From a virus, in the IMG/VR virus record IMGVR_UViG_3300045521_000059: a stretch of 64,000 nt of DNA; one strand, 5' to 3'. The position numbers and the translations under genes are program-made. Shown here one piece after another: positions 309-14,272 of this stretch; positions within the stretch are counted from its first letter, which is position 1; every line of letters starts with the position of its first letter. The notes under the pieces were generated by a model, which saw nothing but the letters and a program-made list of their open reading frames with translations, had not been told where the DNA came from and did no database searches.

Positions 309-1043
309 TTATTCATGGTGCATACATCTCTCAGAAGGAAGAAAAATAAACAAATTAACAAATTGAGTTAATCCAGCCGCCGAAATCCAGGTAATTACCT
401 CGGCCTCATCATCTTCAGAAAAACTAGATGTCCATATACGACCGTATCGCCCTACAGTCATCATCCCTGGAATATCATCAAGCAAATTTAAGATATCAGA
501 AACGAAATGGTCCGTAGCCGATCTGTATAGATGATCCGCTAAATTAGGTCGGTCCTTTGCTATCTGAAGCCTGTTCCTCACTTGATTGGAAATGCTACAG
601 CCCCAAAGATTATCAGTATCAAGTGCTAATGATATGTCCTGTCTGATTGATTGAATTTTCTCATGCAAATTAAAAACGGCTACACAAGAAGTCGAAGATA
701 CATCAACTGTCATCGAAAAACGTGTCGGAAGAGCAGTCTGAGCCATCTCATCATAATGCATATCAGAAACAATAGGTGAATGTAGCTTTAAAAGATTTCG
801 TGCAGCCGTTAAATTTTCGTGCGATGCATCGTTATCCCCAAATTGATCAAAGGAAGATAATATGTCTGCAATGTTGTCACTATCAATGGCACCGGCAACT
901 ATTTGCCGAGCAATTTGTAAATGAGAAGAAAAGTTTGAAGGTGAAGAAGCTCGATGCATACTCGATTTTCCAGAGGCTATTGCATAATTGTGCCAAGCAT
1001 TTAGCGCTAGTGCAATCGTTGCTTGCGTTGATACATAGTCCAA
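309..1043 (-). CDS. hypothetical protein (244 aa)
   Basis: Long ORF in track; no recognisable motif. Confidence 0.6.
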   Translation of the reverse strand: MDYVSTQATIALALNAWHNYAIASGKSSMHRASSPSNFSSHLQIARQIVAGAIDSDNIADILSSFDQFGDNDASHENLTAARNLLKLHSPIVSDMHYDEMAQTALPTRFSMTVDVSSTSCVAVFNLHEKIQSIRQDISLALDTDNLWGCSISNQVRNRLQIAKDRPNLADHLYRSATDHFVSDILNLLDDIPGMMTVGRYGRIWTSSFSEDDEAEVITWISAAGLTQFVNLFIFLPSERCMHHE

Positions 1044-1076
1044 GGCTTTACTGGTAGTGAGGAGTTAAATTCTGAA

Positions 1077-2270
1077 ATGACATCAGCCAAAGGCTACAGA
1101 CTAAAACTCAGCAGCATTATCGAGTTGTCAGCATGGCTTGACGACTATCGAGCCACGTCTTTACGCCAACTTGGAAAGATGTATGGAACGATGGTTGCAA
1201 AGAGAGCTGTTGAGTACCTTGATAACGATAGAATGGGGATAAACGATCTACCAGACGACGTTTTTGCTAAAGCATGCTCTGACGTTAGAAAATTGCTAGG
1301 AAGAAGTTCAAACGGAATTATCGCGCCTGACATAAATTTATCAATAAAATTTCATTTCGTTCACGATGCAATATTGGCAACTTTCAATCATGGAAATGAT
1401 GAGTATCTGAAGACATGGGAATCGAATAAATCAGTCGTCAAATGGGGTTGGTCAGCTTCGTCTAATTTGAACGGTATTCCAGAACATATTTGGAAAATGC
1501 GAGAAAAATACTGGACTAAAGCCAACGCACGTAAATTCGGGGGAGATTTCCAACTTATACTCGTTGACAAACCACTGCCGGACATCGGTTGGGGAGCCAT
1601 TTGGCGATACCTTCCTTCAAATGAGCAACGAATTGCAACAACCATTGAAGCACTAAAGGACGCTGATCCAACAGGGCTTACAAAGCGCTTTTCCGGACAA
1701 AAACTGAAAGAAACGGTCTTTCGGTCTATAGATCAGGAAATCAACAAAAACAGTTTCCTTAAATCAAACAGGACCCGAAACTACGGAGCGAAGAAAATCA
1801 GGCAGGATGTCGCTGCAGCCAGAAAACAATCGGTGGCAAAAGATATTAATGAAAGAATTGAGGCTAAAGAACGACAACCAGTTCAGGCAGCAGAAATTGA
1901 TCATGCAGACGTAATTGTTGCTTCAGATAGCAAGATTTTTGTTGCGGTGCCCTATGTAGGCCTTGATCCAGATAGTCGCGTGTTTGTTCAAGTCAGCGAT
2001 AAACATGTGACTTTTTCGCAGAACGGCGTCCAATATGGGTTTGTAGACGATGTAAAAAGTTCGAGTCTCGATATTCTAAAGTCCACCAATCAAGTGATTT
2101 TAGTGGAAATTGAAAAAAACTTCGATGAGCGCTTGCTTCGTGCAAAACACATAGCCATTGTCACAAACATAAGTCTTCAAGACGGATTTGGCTCAGCGAT
2201 TAATCGTTTTAAACAAATTACCAACACCGCCATAAAAGAAAAGGAATTAAAAGAATGGGAAAAGCAGTGA
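1077..2270 (+). CDS. hypothetical protein (397 aa)
   Basis: Long ORF with GAGGAG RBS upstream; no recognisable motif. Confidence 0.7.
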   Translation: MTSAKGYRLKLSSIIELSAWLDDYRATSLRQLGKMYGTMVAKRAVEYLDNDRMGINDLPDDVFAKACSDVRKLLGRSSNGIIAPDINLSIKFHFVHDAILATFNHGNDEYLKTWESNKSVVKWGWSASSNLNGIPEHIWKMREKYWTKANARKFGGDFQLILVDKPLPDIGWGAIWRYLPSNEQRIATTIEALKDADPTGLTKRFSGQKLKETVFRSIDQEINKNSFLKSNRTRNYGAKKIRQDVAAARKQSVAKDINERIEAKERQPVQAAEIDHADVIVASDSKIFVAVPYVGLDPDSRVFVQVSDKHVTFSQNGVQYGFVDDVKSSSLDILKSTNQVILVEIEKNFDERLLRAKHIAIVTNISLQDGFGSAINRFKQITNTAIKEKELKEWEKQ

Positions 2271-2624: not shown

Positions 2625-4895
2625 ATGGATAGTCCTGAAGTCTATAAAGACGTTTCTCAGTTCACTCCCGAACTAAAAAGCGCATTTGAAAGAGCTAAAA
2701 CTGAAGCTGAATGGCGTGGTGCGGCTCAAATTGATCTCGTATTAGTATTGAATGCAATGCTTGATGACAAGATCGTTGCTCTTGCAATGCAAGAAAAAGG
2801 CATAGACTTAACAACTTTACGTTTTTATATCGAAAAACATCTCGATGCGAGAAGTTACCCTGAAGAAGTTGGCAAAGAGGGAATTTCTCTCTCGCAGAAC
2901 CTTTTTAAAGCTGTTTCTCAAGCATTCATAAGAAAACCCAGGCAAGAGGTCACCAATCTCGACCTGTTGAATGAGATTTGGAATGTTCCCCCAACACCAG
3001 CTCGTGAATATTATGCGGTTTCTGCTATTGAACTATGCCTTACACAGAATATGGAAACGATCCGTAATTGCGCACGTATGAGCTTCGTATTCGGCCCCAC
3101 TGGATTGGCCAACAATTCACAACCCGGACAAAATTATGAAGGGGCTTTTCCACCTTCGTATAACGTAGAAGTCAAACCTTCGAATATCGCAAAAATGGAA
3201 GATAGTCGCATCTTCAAGGAAGTTGAATTCTGCACCAATCTAACCAGCTTGGCTCATAAGAAAATGATTGATCCTGTCTTTGGTCGAGATCAAGAAATTG
3301 ACAGAATGACCGAGGTCATTTCACGCAGAAAGAAGAATAATCCAATTCTGCTTGGTGAACCAGGCGTGGGAAAGACCGCTGTCGTTGAAGCTCTTGCTGT
3401 AAGAATTATTGAAGGAGAGGTTCCGTATCTACTCAGAAGTGCTGAAATTATCGCATTAGATATTGCCAGATTTATCGCAGGGACCAGACAGCGTGGTGAT
3501 TTTGAACAGCGTATAACCAATCTCGTTGAAACTCTGGAAGCAAATTCTAATCTGATTTTGTTCGTTGACGAAATTCACGCCCTTGTCGGAGGTACACTTG
3601 GAGCCTCTGATGCAGCAGAACTGCTTAAGCCAGCATTGTCGAGCGGTCGTATCCGAGTAATTGGCGCGACAACCCATGGTGAGTACTTGAAGTATTTTGG
3701 TCGAAATCCAGCAATGGCTCGTCGGTTCCAACCTATTTCTATTGCTGAACCAGATGTTGATCACGCCATCATGATCATAGATAAGGTCATCCCTACTTAT
3801 GCAAAATTTCACAACCTGACGTATTGTGAGAATGCGTCAAGACTTGCCGTAGAGCTGTCGAAATCTTTCATTGTTGATAAGCAACTGCCCGATAAGGCTA
3901 TCGACGTCATTGATGAAGCAGGAGCGTCCGCTGCAGCTTCAGGCCGTAATACCGTTGAAGATGCAGACTTCTATAAAGTTGTACAGAGGATGTCGGGCAT
4001 CAAACTTGCCGTTACGGAAAATTTCGGCGCAACCGTTCTTGAAGATTTGAATAAAAGCATTCTAGGACAAACAGAAGCATGCTCTCACATTGCAAGAGCG
4101 CTGGCTCGTTCGAATTCTGGCTTAAATCGGGAAGATCGAGCTAAAACCGCAATCCTACTGTATGGTCCTGAATCATCTGGCAAACGATACGCAGCACGGC
4201 AGGTGGCAAATATCTTGAACACCAAGATGATCCGTATCGATATGTCTGAATTTGTGGAGTCACACTCGACTTCGCGCCTTATCGGAGCTCCTCCAGGATA
4301 TATTGGTTATGGGGAAGGAGGGCAGTTAACAGAGGCGGTTAGACGAAATCCATCAAGTGTAATTTTTCTAGACAGAATGGATCTTGCACACCCAAATGTT
4401 ACAAGCATCATTCTTCAGGCAATAGAGAACGGCATTATCACAGATTCAATGGGGAATAACGTTTCCTTTACAGGTACAACGGTCATCATGTCCATTGCTT
4501 ATGAAAACGTGCGAAAAACAATCGGATTTGGAGCTAATAAGAATGAGGAATACAATGAACGTCCCGATGGTGTTCCAAGTTCACTGTTAGACGCTGCAGA
4601 TGTAGCTGTAGAGTTTAAACCAATGCCTGAAGTTGCGCTCGAAACAGTTGCCAGCAAGCTCATATCTGAATTGGTTAAGCGGCTGAGCAAAAAAGATGTA
4701 AAGATAACAATTGAAGGTGATGTCTCTCACGAACTGGCACGCGTCGCAAAGGAAGATGTCGGAACCGCGAAGGCAGTTGAAATAGCGTTTAAGAAATTAA
4801 TCGAAGACACAATACTCGACGCATTGCCCAAGAGAGGGCAGCAACTAGCACTAAATATAGTAGACAAAAAACCTGTTCTTGAATTCATAAATTAG
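2625..4895 (+). CDS. clpA: ClpA-like Hsp100 AAA+ ATPase with intact D1 and degenerate D2
   Basis: Clp N-domain-like start; D1 GEPGVGKT, LFVDEIH, IGATT, ARRFQ; D2 pore loop GAPPGYIGY; IGF loop; no ClpB middle domain. Confidence 0.88.
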   Translation: MDSPEVYKDVSQFTPELKSAFERAKTEAEWRGAAQIDLVLVLNAMLDDKIVALAMQEKGIDLTTLRFYIEKHLDARSYPEEVGKEGISLSQNLFKAVSQAFIRKPRQEVTNLDLLNEIWNVPPTPAREYYAVSAIELCLTQNMETIRNCARMSFVFGPTGLANNSQPGQNYEGAFPPSYNVEVKPSNIAKMEDSRIFKEVEFCTNLTSLAHKKMIDPVFGRDQEIDRMTEVISRRKKNNPILLGEPGVGKTAVVEALAVRIIEGEVPYLLRSAEIIALDIARFIAGTRQRGDFEQRITNLVETLEANSNLILFVDEIHALVGGTLGASDAAELLKPALSSGRIRVIGATTHGEYLKYFGRNPAMARRFQPISIAEPDVDHAIMIIDKVIPTYAKFHNLTYCENASRLAVELSKSFIVDKQLPDKAIDVIDEAGASAAASGRNTVEDADFYKVVQRMSGIKLAVTENFGATVLEDLNKSILGQTEACSHIARALARSNSGLNREDRAKTAILLYGPESSGKRYAARQVANILNTKMIRIDMSEFVESHSTSRLIGAPPGYIGYGEGGQLTEAVRRNPSSVIFLDRMDLAHPNVTSIILQAIENGIITDSMGNNVSFTGTTVIMSIAYENVRKTIGFGANKNEEYNERPDGVPSSLLDAADVAVEFKPMPEVALETVASKLISELVKRLSKKDVKITIEGDVSHELARVAKEDVGTAKAVEIAFKKLIEDTILDALPKRGQQLALNIVDKKPVLEFIN

Positions 4896-10581: not shown

Positions 10582-10593
10582 AATTCTTCGTTC

Positions 10594-10636
10594 ACGGGCC
10601 GAGCAGCGCCACTTAAGGCAGCAGGTCTCGGCCCGT
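10594..10636. other. GC-rich hairpin inside array 1
   Basis: 10-bp stem ACGGGCCGAG/CTCGGCCCGT with an interrupted inner helix. Confidence 0.5.
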
Positions 10637-10647
10637 TAGTTTAAATT

Positions 10648-10737
10648 TGGTGGGGAGTGGACGGATTTTTACCGTAGCCACTAGGGGACAGGTGTACGGC
10701 CTGCCAGGGTTGTCATACCCTTCTTAACGCACTCCCC
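10648..10737 (-). tRNA. atypical tRNA-Tyr(GTA)-like RNA
   Basis: 8-bp acceptor GGGGAGTG/CACTCCCC plus A-CCA; loop CCGTACA (C33); T-loop TAAAAAT; non-canonical D arm. Confidence 0.6.
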
Positions 10738-10745
10738 GTGCGAAA

Positions 10746-10837
10746 TGGTGGGGGACGGCTAGATTTGAACTGCTTGCCGCATAGGGACTCGGGTTACAAC
10801 CGAGTGACAGAACCGCCCATCCTTATTGGCGTCCCCC
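10746..10837 (-). tRNA. atypical tRNA-Tyr(GTA)-like RNA
   Basis: Acceptor GGGGGACG/CGTCCCCC plus A-CCA; CTCGG-TTGTAAC-CCGAG; irregular T stem and D arm. Confidence 0.7.
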
Positions 10838-10842
10838 GAAAA

Positions 10843-11063
10843 TGGTGGAGATGACCGGGTTCGAACCGGCGATTGTCTTCGGACCTGAGCATTACCACAG
10901 GCTACCTCAATGCTTGAGAAACGCGCTTCCCTACTCGGCCCTCTCTGGCTATTTCGGTGCATCCACAACTCGTGTGCTTGAGATATTTCGAAGACCGGGT
11001 TTTACCCCGGTCGCGTTCTACGTTTTTTGCAACTGCCCACACCGAATCCAGGCGAGCATCCCC
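10843..11063 (-). ncRNA. 221-nt one-piece mini-tmRNA-like RNA
   Basis: GGGGATG/CATCTCC with G3.U70, A73 and CCA; tmRNA-type D-loop CTGGATTCG; T-arm GCCGG-TTCGAAC-CCGGT; helix-2-like pairing; no canonical tag ORF. Confidence 0.65.
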
Positions 11064-11079
11064 AATTAGTATTAAAAGA

Positions 11080-11162
11080 TGGTACGGTTAGAGGGACTCG
11101 AACCCCCACGGTTTCCCGCCAGAACCTAAATCTGGTGCGTCTACCAATTTCGCCATAACCGC
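11080..11162 (-). tRNA. tRNA-Leu(TAG)
   Basis: CCAGA-TTTAGGT-TCTGG; CCA. Confidence 0.95.
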
Positions 11163-13366: not shown

Positions 13367-13456
13367 TCGAACTGACCAAATCGAACCAACTAATGCTGAT
13401 TGATTGTTTCATTACTATTCCATATTTTGAAGCATGAAAACTACGAGTTTGAGCTT

Positions 13457-14272
13457 ATGACTAAAAGAACCGAAGAAGACGGCCGTTTATTCCCATCCAT
13501 TAAGTGGGATCACGGATGGTCATTATCGATCCAGGCCGACAAGTACGGATATCAATGTAGCCCAAAACGAAAACTGGATACATTGGAGGATTACGAAACC
13601 GTCGAGGTAAAAATAGACGGGCCGCATGGCACTTACGTTGATCCACACACAATGCAGCTATTACCACATGTATTGGATAAGTTCCCAAAACTTACAAGTG
13701 ACAGCGGACCTTCCATCGGCGGAAATCTCACTTGGGACGATGTTGATGTCGTCAAACAAGCAATCTTGCTGGCCTCCCTCAGCCCGAATGACGGAGTTCC
13801 TTCAGGAGCAATTGGATGGTCGTGTAGGGAAGTTTATCACGGGACATCGAATGAAAATGCGGAAGACATCCTGAATTACGGTATCAAACCATCTATTGGA
13901 ACAGGCTATTTTGGACGCGCATTTTATGTGGCTGACGATGTGGAACTGGCAATCTCAAACTATGCGGAATTTTCAGATGACGAAAATGGTGGAGCCGTTA
14001 TCGTCACCACAATCAAAGAAGGGGCCTTGATACTCGACTTGAGAAATCATAAGGACAATCAAAAATGGATAGAAAGCGGGCTAGTGTCTATCATCGGTAG
14101 AGACGATTTCGATCTGCAGGCCCGAAAGAGAGGAATCGATGGCGTTTATGATCGATCAGTCGGAGGATTAGCCATTTTTAATGCAGCAATTCTAACGAAA
14201 CCACATCTCATAAATAATACTGCATCCAGCGATGTTGAGATCGACGCCAACAGTCCGGAAATAAAAATGTAA
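13457..14272 (+). CDS. two-domain protein with C-terminal PARP-like ADP-ribosyltransferase motif
   Basis: VYHGTS...ILNYGI...GTGYFGRAFYVADD (H-Y ART signature). Confidence 0.6.
   Translation: MTKRTEEDGRLFPSIKWDHGWSLSIQADKYGYQCSPKRKLDTLEDYETVEVKIDGPHGTYVDPHTMQLLPHVLDKFPKLTSDSGPSIGGNLTWDDVDVVKQAILLASLSPNDGVPSGAIGWSCREVYHGTSNENAEDILNYGIKPSIGTGYFGRAFYVADDVELAISNYAEFSDDENGGAVIVTTIKEGALILDLRNHKDNQKWIESGLVSIIGRDDFDLQARKRGIDGVYDRSVGGLAIFNAAILTKPHLINNTASSDVEIDANSPEIKM

What the first reader, a model, noticed from the sequence alone, without database searches (positions are those of the whole stretch)
10843..11063. 221-nt one-piece mini-tmRNA-like RNA without a canonical degradation tag
It has a complete tmRNA-style tRNA-like domain: G3.U70 and A73 alanine identity, an unpaired D-loop analogue CTGGATTCG as in E. 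coli ssrA, a T-arm and CCA. A helix-2-like pairing is present (TCGG/CCGA; TGGGCA-G-TTGC/GTAA-TGCTCA). It is much shorter than typical tmRNAs (about 350 nt) and one-piece, whereas alphaproteobacterial host tmRNA is permuted and two-piece. No ANDENYALAA-like tag is present. The best resume-like context (AAATAGCC) gives REGRVGKRVSQALR-stop, which lacks a terminal AA degron. Inference: it could rescue stalled ribosomes without proteolysis, or act as an SmpB/AlaRS decoy, co-induced with the tRNAs when translation stalls.
Basis: partly seen in the sequence, partly recalled or inferred. Interest (0 to 1): 0.75.

Follow-up and report, generated by a model that had tools for sequence, protein, structure and literature searches.

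The report
New tRNA-like RNA, not a tmRNA

Summary
The RNA is real and sits exactly at 10843-11063 (-). Its ends form a tRNA-like domain: a 7-bp acceptor stem with G3.U70, A73, encoded CCA and a canonical T arm. Rfam's tmRNA model matches only that domain (21 bits, cut-off 47) and ARAGORN calls no tmRNA.

I found six further distinct copies:
- Mesorhizobium sp. SP-1A
- Pararhizobium sp. BT-229
- one other Rhizobiales genome (G114)
- three GC-rich metagenome contigs

On these, a different fold is strongly supported (93% of cells paired; 33 of 57 pairs change on both sides; 0/500 shuffles reach it). It has a D arm, two hairpins, and a closed domain around an invariant ~47-nt core with GAA/AGUA and a GNRA hairpin.

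No reading frame is conserved.

The gene lies in tRNA operons, in one rsr-Y RNA-rtcBA repair operon, or alone behind sigma-54-type promoters. Relatives' replicons carry their own tmRNA and SmpB.

Best reading: a new stress-induced tRNA-mimic RNA family whose partner is unknown. The scan also noted an identical 221-nt copy in another genome.

The parts
10843..11063 (-). Whole RNA gene (221 nt), a member of a new tRNA-like RNA family
   Evidence: Covariance model R1 scores 210 bits here, 235-243 bits in three rhizobial relatives and 103-109 bits in two metagenome copies. Ordinary tRNAs score only 8-30 bits.
11057..11063 (-). Acceptor stem, 5' strand (GGGGAUG; G3 of the G3.U70 pair)
   Evidence: Pairs with 10847-10853. 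Helix 1 is 100% paired in the family, with changes on both sides at 3 of 7 pairs.
10843..10853 (-). Acceptor stem 3' strand (CAUCUCC), discriminator A73, encoded CCA
   Evidence: Sequence; helix 1.
11035..11053 (-). D arm: 4-bp stem GCCU/GGGC whose loop contains GGAUUCGG
   Evidence: Helix 2 is 100% paired in 7 sequences.
11010..11033 (-). Hairpin A, at the position of an anticodon arm. It has a 14-nt loop with AAAACG and no 7-nt anticodon loop.
   Evidence: Helix 3: all 4 pairs change on both sides, 89% paired. The loop motif GAAACG/AAAACG is kept in all members.
10995..11010 (-). Hairpin B (stem CCGGG/CCCGG, loop GUAAAA)
   Evidence: Helix 4: 4 of 5 pairs change on both sides.
10989..10994 (-). 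Helix G, 5' strand (UCUUCG); it closes the inner domain
   Evidence: Pairs with 10876-10881 (CGAAGA). All 5 modelled pairs change on both sides across the family (helix 5).
10876..10881 (-). Helix G, 3' strand (CGAAGA), a few bases before the T arm
   Evidence: helix 5
10976..10983 (-). Helix C, 5' strand
   Evidence: Pairs with 10905-10913. Helix 6: 9 of 10 pairs change on both sides.
10905..10913 (-). Helix C, 3' strand
   Evidence: helix 6
10918..10968 (-). Near-invariant core. It contains helix D (UGUG/CGCG), CC/GG pairs, a loop-E-like GAA opposite AGUA, and a 3-bp hairpin GCC-AGAGAG-GGC with a GNRA-type loop.
   Evidence: About 47 nt are almost identical in all 7 members. The hairpin shows a GCC/GGC to GUC/GAC compensatory change in G114.
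10884..10901 (-). Hairpin F (6-bp stem, conserved loop GUAAUG; GUAGUG in two of the three metagenome copies)
   Evidence: Helix 10: 97.6% paired, 3 of 6 pairs change on both sides.
10854..10870 (-). T arm (GCCGG-UUCGAAC-CCGGU)
   Evidence: Helix 11: 100% paired. Aligned by Rfam's tmRNA and permuted-tmRNA models.

Best explanation
The stretch encodes a member of a small RNA family (215-225 nt) that I could not find described.

SHOWN: the architecture, its conservation, and the genomic settings.
- It has a complete tRNA 'top half': a 7-bp acceptor stem, A73, a CCA end (encoded in most copies), a 4-bp D arm and a canonical T arm.
- In place of an anticodon arm and variable loop it has two hairpins and a closed multi-helix domain. 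That domain surrounds an almost invariant ~47-nt core with a loop-E-like GAA/AGUA element and a GNRA-capped hairpin.

INFERRED: how it works.
- It is transcribed inside the Leu/Pro/His/Tyr tRNA operon.
- It is cut out like a tRNA by RNase P and 3' processing.
- In the rhizobial subgroup it is probably charged with alanine, because G1-C72, G2-C71, G3.U70, G4-C69 and A73 are all kept.
- It then acts as a condition-induced tRNA mimic. The tRNA-like module gives maturation, stability and entry to tRNA-binding sites. The invariant core docks on a slowly evolving partner of the translation or RNA-repair apparatus; I rank the ribosome first, then a tRNA-handling or repair enzyme.
- It does not work by trans-translation tagging.
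For: Real family and fold:
- There are seven distinct copies. R1 scores them 103-243 bits (55 bits for one truncated copy) against 8-30 bits for tRNAs.
- On the family alignment, 93.1% of cells are paired against 73.6% in shuffles, 33 of 57 pairs change on both sides, and covariation is 0.516 against 0.06-0.14 for slid partners.

Alanine-type end under selection in the rhizobial subgroup:
- The first four pairs and A73 are invariant, while pairs 5 and 6 vary with compensation.

Not a messenger:
- No frame is conserved.
- Compensatory changes and a 2-nt loop-length difference lie inside every candidate frame.

Conditional expression:
- In the window it lies inside one tRNA operon with no promoter or terminator of its own.
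- In genome G114 it lies on the same strand between Y RNAs and rtcB-rtcA, downstream of rsr.
- All three metagenome copies have a GGCAC-N5-YYGCW sigma-54-type promoter ending 13-15 nt before the mature 5' end. These are the only three matches to that pattern in the 12 loci scanned, both strands.

No need for another tmRNA:
- The related replicons already carry a second permuted tmRNA with a degron tag (ANDNYAMDRALAA) and a second SmpB.
Against:
- The partner of the core is unknown.
- The metagenome subgroup has A3-U70, so alanylation cannot be the family-wide function.
- One copy ends AUCA and one has no encoded CCA.
- The link to RNA repair rests on one operon. Operons whose RtcB is 82-92% identical lack the RNA.
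- The family is very rare: no further copy among 201 other Mesorhizobium and 37 other Pararhizobium species genomes, one further genome in 400 other Rhizobiales, and none in 400 other Alphaproteobacteria sampled. A narrow, element-specific role such as a decoy is therefore equally possible.
- The alignment used for pair counts was fitted to the model.
Confidence: 0.5

Rival explanations
1. Tag-free mini-tmRNA. The alanyl-RNA enters the empty A site of stalled ribosomes (with or without SmpB), accepts the nascent chain, and the ribosome is then freed by drop-off or a release factor, with no degradation tag added.
For: - It has a tmRNA-type acceptor (GGGG start, G3.U70, A73, CCA), and the D-loop bases CUGGAUUCG are identical to E. 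coli ssrA (E. coli sequence recalled from memory, not checked here).
- Rfam's tmRNA model is the only family that matches.
- The core sits where an anticodon arm or SmpB would sit.
Against: - A conserved D stem replaces the open tmRNA D loop.
- The metagenome subgroup lacks G3.U70.
- The related replicons already supply a full tmRNA and SmpB.
- No stop codon in a conserved frame would end translation.
- Nothing here tests ribosome or SmpB binding.
Confidence: 0.17
2. Y-RNA-like adaptor or repair cofactor. Like YrlA, it joins a tRNA-like module to a protein-binding module and serves the Rsr/RtcB RNA-repair and decay response. It might tether or regulate a repair or decay enzyme, or act as a sentinel substrate whose cleavage products signal damage.
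For: - In G114 it lies on the same strand directly after at least two Y RNAs (a YrlA match of 68.6 bits, a weaker one of 26.5 bits, and two further GGNGGAAUGC starts read by eye) and before rtcB-rtcA, downstream of rsr.
- Sigma-54 promoters drive the stand-alone copies. rtc operons are sigma-54/RtcR dependent (PMC7790460), and rtcR is present in homologous loci L044 and L045.
- The window and related replicons carry RtcB and Rsr.
- M. smegmatis YrlA is cut by RNase P and receives CCA (PMC4201824).
Against: - It has no GNCGAAN0-1G Ro60-binding motif (and the sequence).
- Three closely related rsr-rtcB operons lack it.
- In the rhizobial replicons it is hundreds of kb from rsr and about 40 kb from the window's RtcB-like gene.
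- No rtcR, rsr or rtcA lies within the 14-kb metagenome contigs.
Confidence: 0.15
3. Decoy for a tRNA- or tmRNA-targeting toxin or host factor. An uncleavable or sacrificial mimic carried by a mobile replicon beside its spare tRNAs soaks up an acceptor- or elbow-binding nuclease, acetyltransferase, AlaRS or SmpB.
For: - It sits in tRNA arrays on rare accessory replicons, next to two other non-canonical tRNA-like genes.
- Its distribution is very patchy.
- tRNA arrays are discussed as anti-defence cargo (PMC12803027).
Against: - An invariant 47-nt core shared with distant GC-rich organisms argues for a universal partner rather than a lineage-specific toxin.
- Stand-alone chromosomal-looking copies have sigma-54 promoters.
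Confidence: 0.12
4. Canonical-style tmRNA with a short unusual tag. This covers the first reader's tag, or the alternative frame that starts at GCA of GGAUGCACC. That frame gives APK-stop in the window, a 9-residue peptide in the three rhizobial relatives, and 20 residues in the metagenome copies.
For: - A GCA codon is invariant, and some stop follows it in every member.
- The tRNA-like domain is as described above.
Against: - Peptide length and sequence are not conserved: 3, 9 and 20 residues, with a different stop used in each subgroup.
- The candidate codons lie inside a paired, invariant structural core in which changes are compensatory for RNA pairing and not synonymous.
- ARAGORN calls no tmRNA here but does call three of the relatives' tmRNAs.
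Confidence: 0.04
5. A decayed gene, or a tRNA-Ala interrupted by an intron or insertion.
For: It has tRNA-like ends, an insert of about 140 nt, and its neighbours are tRNAs.
Against: - Strong covariation and an invariant core show purifying selection.
- Removing the inner domain leaves no 7-nt anticodon loop and no NGC anticodon.
- No group I intron or any other Rfam family matches at E up to 10.
- The insert is shorter than the smallest bacterial tRNA group I introns (about 200 nt, from memory).
Confidence: 0.02

Closest known systems
tmRNA (SsrA; Rfam RF00023; permuted forms RF01849 and RF04321)
   Same: - The acceptor stem starts GGGG with G3.U70, A73 and CCA.
- It has a canonical T arm and the D-region bases CUGG-UUCG.
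- tmRNA genes are known inside tRNA arrays on plasmids and phages (PMC5966550, PMC10832533).
   Different: - It has no conserved tag reading frame, no resume context and no PK1-PK4.
- The proposed helix 2 is unsupported.
- It has a real D stem.
- At 221 nt it is about 60% of the usual length.
- It scores below the Rfam cut-off and is not called by ARAGORN.
- One subgroup lacks G3.U70.
- Related replicons carry a true two-piece tmRNA as well.
Bacterial Y RNAs of the YrlA type (Rfam RF02553; Chen et al. 2014, PMC4201824)
   Same: - It is a modular RNA: a tRNA-like module (T arm, D arm, acceptor-like stem) joined to a second conserved module.
- One copy lies among Y RNAs in an rsr-rtcBA operon.
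- M. smegmatis YrlA acquires a CCA end after RNase P cleavage.
   Different: - The topology is the reverse. Here the 5' and 3' ends form the acceptor stem and the conserved module is internal. In YrlA the ends form the Ro60-binding stem and the acceptor-like stem is closed.
- It has no GNCGAAN0-1G Ro60 site.
- It has no significant YrlA model score (13.6 bits, E 4.6).
Mitochondrial tmRNAs of jakobids that keep only the tRNA-like domain (recalled from the literature, not checked here)
   Same: It is an alanine-type tRNA-like RNA without a usable message part.
   Different: The jakobid RNAs are reduced relics of tmRNA. This RNA has a large, conserved, covarying inner domain of its own.
Class II tRNAs and allo-tRNAs with long variable arms (recalled from the literature, not checked here)
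   Same: It has an acceptor stem, a D arm and a T arm, with a large extra domain that emerges just before the T arm.
   Different: It has no 7-nt anticodon loop. The extra domain is about 110 nt with several helices and an invariant core.

Membership tests
tmRNA (one-piece, RF00023) | tRNA-like domain: acceptor stem with G3.U70, A73, CCA, T arm | tested here: met
   Sequence. The Rfam alignment covers exactly these parts. Three metagenome relatives have A3-U70 instead.
tmRNA (one-piece, RF00023) | Score at or above the curated threshold, or a call by ARAGORN | tested here: not met
   21.2 bits against 47; 28.6 bits for the best relative. ARAGORN calls none here but calls three tmRNAs in the relatives' genomes.
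tmRNA (one-piece, RF00023) | Tag reading frame: a resume codon followed by a conserved short ORF with a stop and a C-terminal degron | tested here: not met
No frame is conserved. There is a 2-nt loop-length difference inside the core.
tmRNA (one-piece, RF00023) | Long helix P2 joining the tRNA-like domain to the body, directly after an unpaired D loop | tested here: not met
A D stem is conserved. The covarying closing helix G is separated from the D arm by two hairpins.
tmRNA (one-piece, RF00023) | Pseudoknots PK1-PK4 | tested here: not met
   306 of 374 model positions are skipped. The supported fold is nested. Only one candidate loop-strand contact exists (GAAA with UUUC); it is invariant and so untestable.
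tmRNA (one-piece, RF00023) | Alanylation by AlaRS, SmpB binding, trans-translation | not testable with these tools
   This needs biochemistry.
Two-piece (permuted) tmRNA, RF01849 / RF04321 | Permuted gene order: the acceptor piece with CCA lies upstream of a coding piece whose 5' strand pairs with it | tested here: not met
   RF04321 gives 19.7 bits against 47, spanning this RNA's 3' end and the next gene's 5' end. The next gene pairs perfectly with its own 3' strand. True permuted tmRNAs in relatives score 180-308 bits.
tRNA / tRNA-Ala with an intron | Anticodon stem with a 7-nt loop and anticodon; a known intron class | tested here: not met
   ARAGORN makes no tRNA call here. No Rfam intron family matches at E up to 10. 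Hairpin A loops are 10-18 nt long.
Y RNA / YrlA (RF02553) | Terminal stem formed by the 5' and 3' ends that carries the Ro60-binding motif GNCGAAN0-1G | tested here: not met
   In L042 the motif occurs only in the upstream Y RNAs (positions 675 and 1124), not within 1356-1580. Here the ends form an acceptor stem.
Y RNA / YrlA (RF02553) | Location beside rsr (Ro60), often with rtcB | tested here: inconclusive
   True in G114. Not so in three related operons or in the window.

The most novel reading that the evidence does not exclude
The most novel reading not excluded is a protein-independent, tag-free ribosome-rescue or ribosome-parking RNA. In this reading an aminoacylated tRNA mimic uses its invariant loop-E/GNRA core to take the place of anticodon, mRNA and SmpB in the decoding site. 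It is switched on only on demand, by a stall-sensing attenuator in rhizobial tRNA operons and by sigma-54 activators (RtcR-type) elsewhere. An even bolder variant is that the invariant core is a small ribozyme or ligand pocket acting on the nearby CCA end.
Probability: 0.15. Interest if true: 0.9.

Novelty: new variant of a known kind. Interest (0 to 1): 0.62.

Why it matters
tRNA mimicry by non-coding RNAs is known from only a few bacterial families, chiefly tmRNA and YrlA Y RNAs. Each of those opened a chapter on quality control.

This would be a third architecture: open tRNA ends with CCA joined to a separate, extremely conserved structured core. Its support from compensatory changes is unusually clean for so few sequences.

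Its three settings all point to conditional use when translation or RNA is damaged:
- stall-regulated tRNA operons on giant rhizobial replicons
- an rsr-Y RNA-rtcBA repair operon
- stand-alone genes behind sigma-54 promoters

Finding the partner of the core could reveal a new way for cells or mobile replicons to handle stalled or damaged translation machinery.

For annotation, it also shows that weak tmRNA hits inside tRNA arrays should not be called tmRNA.

Tried and rejected
Similarity searches that found nothing:
- blastn of the locus against the phage and plasmid collections: no match.
- Four IMG/VR pattern scans: no true copy; the 19 hits to a 15-mer lack the rest of the core.
- The window has no held genome.

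Genome samples with no further copy:
- No further copy in the Rhizobiales family sample, in Mesorhizobium, in Pararhizobium or in the Alphaproteobacteria class sample.
- The Rhizobiales order sample gave only G114.
- Neither of the other two genomes of G114's family has it.

Searches with a translation of the RNA, hoping to catch spurious ORF calls elsewhere:
- The word-index search found nothing.
- The exhaustive HMM search found one unrelated repetitive protein.

Other dead ends:
- Operons of close RtcB homologues (L043-L045) lack the RNA.
- L008 and L010 share no conserved protein neighbours, and no RtcR, Rsr or RtcA lies in the metagenome contigs or the window.
- The repeated GCCUUAGUGGCG element does not fit sigma-54 promoter spacing (by eye).

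Ideas considered and dropped:
- 5S rRNA mimicry: GAGUAGGGAA equals a stretch of E. coli 5S as I recall it. I dropped this because the resemblance reduces to a loop-E motif, the alphaproteobacterial 5S sequence as I recall it lacks the rest, and Rfam's 5S model does not match.
- A sarcin-ricin-loop mimic: the strand order is reversed.
- A hammerhead-like core: the CUGAUGA box is absent.
- A group I intron: too short, and no Rfam match.

The MFE fold of the single sequence is not informative.

Full report
**1. What is at the coordinates**

The window holds 22 tRNA genes in three arrays, and ARAGORN reports no tmRNA. The finding lies on the minus strand between tRNA-Leu(UAG) (11080-11162) and two further odd tRNA-like genes. 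All of these sit inside array 1, which runs from about 11,521 down to 9,912.

Read 5' to 3', the RNA starts GGGGAUG and ends with a 5-bp T arm (loop UUCGAAC), then CAUCUCC, A and CCA. The tRNA-like ends, G3.U70, A73 and CCA are therefore real.

At a permissive threshold Rfam's tmRNA model matches exactly 10843-11063 (-). The score is only 21.2 bits against a gathering score of 47. For the best relative, the printed alignment shows that only the acceptor stem, a few D-region bases and the T arm align; 306 of 374 model positions are skipped. The minimum-free-energy fold of the single sequence is no better than shuffles (z = -1.1).

**2. Relatives**

The locus has no match in the phage or plasmid collections. 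A neighbouring protein led to two genomes with the same tRNA arrays:
- Mesorhizobium sp. SP-1A (89% protein identity)
- Pararhizobium sp. BT-229 (51% protein identity)

Both carry a homologue of the RNA at the same place. A BLAST search of sampled Rhizobiales found one more genome, G114.

A scan of metagenome contigs with a 20-nt core motif found four more:
- One contig has an RNA identical to the Mesorhizobium copy.
- Three are GC-rich contigs with a divergent form.

The scan's own notes record an identical 221-nt copy in another genome (e1-5352075).

The family is rare:
- No further copy among 201 other Mesorhizobium species genomes.
- No further copy among 37 other Pararhizobium species genomes.
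- One further genome (G114) in 400 other Rhizobiales sampled.
- None in 400 other genomes of the family sample or in 400 other Alphaproteobacteria sampled.
- No true copy in IMG/VR.

**3. Structure**

I aligned the four rhizobial copies (A4), read the helices from compensatory changes, and built covariance model R1.

| Target | R1 score (bits) |
|---|---|
| Rhizobial copies | 210-243 |
| Two full metagenome copies | 103-109 |
| Truncated metagenome copy | 55 |
| Ordinary tRNAs | 8-30 |

On the seven-sequence alignment A6:
- 93.1% of cells form standard pairs, against 73.6% in shuffles (0 of 500 shuffles reach it).
- 33 of 57 pairs change on both sides.
- The covariation score is 0.516, against 0.06-0.14 when partners are slid by 1-3 columns.

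That alignment was fitted to the model, which favours the structure. The slid controls and the manually read compensations argue that the signal is real. Helix G is an example:

| Copy | Helix G strands |
|---|---|
| window | GUCUUCG / CGAAGAC |
| Mesorhizobium | CGUGA / UCACG |
| G114 | GACAUA / UAUGUC |
| L010 | CGCCAGC / GCUGGCG |
| L008 | GUGACG / CGUCGC |

The fold, from 5' to 3', is:
- acceptor stem
- a 4-bp D arm
- hairpin A, with a 10-18-nt loop that begins GAAACG or AAAACG
- hairpin B
- helix G, which closes an inner domain made of helix C, helix D, the core and hairpin F (loop GUAAUG or GUAGUG)
- a short linker
- T arm

The core of about 47 nt is nearly identical in all members. It contains GAA opposite AGUA flanked by CC/GG, which is a loop-E or sarcin-ricin-type arrangement by sequence. 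It also contains a 3-bp hairpin with a GNRA-type loop. In G114 that stem shows a GCC/GGC to GUC/GAC compensatory change.

The GAAA of the hairpin A loop is complementary to the UUUC that follows helix D. Both are invariant, so this possible pseudoknot cannot be tested by covariation.

**4.

*Helix 2.* The helix-2-like pairings were counted on the family alignment. 56.8% of cells are paired against a shuffled mean of 56.4%, with no excess covariation. The bases involved belong to the D stem, hairpin F and helix G.

*D loop.* The 'unpaired D-loop analogue' is the loop of a conserved D stem.

*Tag.* The proposed tag frame runs without a stop to the 3' end in all six other copies. Each frame meets some stop in most copies, as expected by chance, but peptide length and sequence are not conserved. 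The frame that starts at the invariant GCA illustrates this:

| Copy | Peptide in the GCA frame |
|---|---|
| window | APK-stop |
| three rhizobial relatives | 9 residues |
| metagenome copies | 20 residues, ending at a different stop |

The core hairpin loop is 6 nt in one subgroup and 4 nt in the other, so any frame through it shifts. The changes seen are compensatory for RNA pairing, not synonymous. There is therefore no conserved message.

**5. Why it is not needed as a tmRNA**

The Mesorhizobium and Pararhizobium genomes each have two permuted alpha-type tmRNA genes. One lies on the same large contig as the tRNA arrays (226 and 181 bits). Each genome also has two SmpB genes, again one on that contig. 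ARAGORN reads the tag ANDNYAMDRALAA from the Mesorhizobium replicon copy and ANDNYAEARLAA from the chromosomal copies. Those calls also serve as a positive control for ARAGORN. The same contigs encode a Ro60/TROVE protein.

**6. Genomic settings**

*Window and the two rhizobial relatives.* The RNA is one gene of a polycistronic tRNA operon. It has no promoter or terminator of its own. A promoter-like site lies at 12020-11991 and a terminator-like site at 9848-9831. An earlier follow-up in this scan describes a leader-peptide attenuator in front of this operon (e1-5361126). I did not re-test that.

*G114.* The RNA lies on the same strand after the end of rsr (Ro60 vWA domain). Between rsr and the RNA are a YrlA Y RNA (68.6 bits, cut-off 69), a weaker YrlA match (26.5 bits), and two further Y-RNA-like starts read by eye. 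Directly downstream are rtcB (Pfam 426 bits) and rtcA.

Homologous operons have rtcR-rsr-Y RNAs-rtcB but no copy of this RNA, even with RtcB 82-92% identical. The association is therefore sporadic.

*Metagenome copies.* The three GC-rich copies stand alone. Each is preceded by a sigma-54-type promoter: (T/C)GGCAC, five bases, then (C/T)(C/T)GC(A/T). The -12 element ends 13-15 nt before the mature 5' end. These are the only three matches to that pattern in the 12 loci scanned on both strands.

*Common theme.* Expression appears to be conditional and activator- or stall-dependent. That is unlike housekeeping tRNA or tmRNA genes.

**7. Interpretation**

*Shown:*
- A conserved, structured RNA family.
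- A tRNA top half plus an invariant core.
- No conserved ORF.
- The three settings above.

*Inferred:*
- tRNA-like maturation, from the 7-bp acceptor stem, the T/D elbow, the encoded CCA and the position among tRNAs.
- Alanine charging in the rhizobial subgroup. The first four acceptor pairs and A73 are invariant while pairs 5 and 6 drift with compensation.
- A conserved partner for the core. The core stays invariant while the rest of the molecule has diverged to structure-only conservation, which points to a slowly evolving partner.

Geometry puts the core where an anticodon arm would be. That makes the ribosome the first candidate, followed by tRNA-handling or RNA-repair enzymes. I therefore read it as a stress-induced tRNA mimic of a new family, and I keep tag-free rescue, a Y-RNA-like adaptor role and a decoy role as live rivals.

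*What lowers confidence:*
- There are only seven distinct sequences.
- The metagenome subgroup has A3-U70.
- Only one repair-operon case is known.

**8. Novelty**

No Rfam 15 family other than the tmRNA models matches meaningfully. Full-text searches found papers on tmRNAs in tRNA arrays and on YrlA, but nothing that describes this RNA. I class it as a new variant within the known kind 'tRNA-mimic non-coding RNAs'. It is not a member of the tmRNA or Y RNA families.

Noticed in passing
window 10747-10842 (-) and 10648-10746 (-): Two more non-canonical tRNA-like genes follow directly. Both have perfect 8-bp acceptor stems, A73 and CCA, and neither is called by ARAGORN or Rfam. The first has a 5-bp stem with loop UUGUAAC (GUA in the anticodon position). 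It is conserved in Mesorhizobium SP-1A and contig L011 with compensatory stem changes (CUCGG/CCGAG to CCCGG/CCGGG). The second occurs only in the window.
   Followed up: partly
window ~10590-10640 (-); L006/L042 at 1321, 1692, 3038 (+): A short motif, GCCUUA(A)GUGGCG, sits in the loop of a 9-bp hairpin just after the odd tRNA-like genes in the window and in L011. In G114 it recurs three times in the repair operon: before the RNA, before rtcB and before rtcA. It does not fit sigma-54 promoter spacing. It may be a processing or protein-binding element that travels with the RNA.
   Followed up: partly
G001:C2 (L040 3097-3494; SmpB at 262631-263059; TROVE at 190308-191189) and G002:C3: The megabase contigs that carry the homologous tRNA arrays also carry a second permuted tmRNA (tag ANDNYAMDRALAA in G001), a second SmpB and an Rsr/Ro60 gene. 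These replicons duplicate much of the translation quality-control kit.
   Followed up: partly
L006/L042 ~670-1235 (+): G114 has about four tandem Y-RNA-like genes between rsr and the new RNA. Two contain GGCGAAUG; two more start GGNGGAAUGC and were read by eye. Only the first reaches near-threshold YrlA score (68.6 bits), and a second scores 26.5 bits.
   Followed up: no
L001 8640-8716 (-) versus L011 1138-1215 (-): The tRNA just upstream of the RNA differs only around its anticodon loop between two near-identical replicons. ARAGORN calls it Ser(GGA) in one and Pro(UGG) in the other, and it scores weakly as a tRNA (about 32-50 bits). It may be an anticodon-loop variant or a decaying copy.
   Followed up: no
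window 2625-4895 (+), 13400-14272 (+), 54737-56029 (+): The window also encodes a ClpB-like double AAA+ protein, a PARP-catalytic-domain protein between arrays 1 and 2, and a divergent RtcB-like ligase (25% identical to the G114 RtcB).
   Followed up: partly
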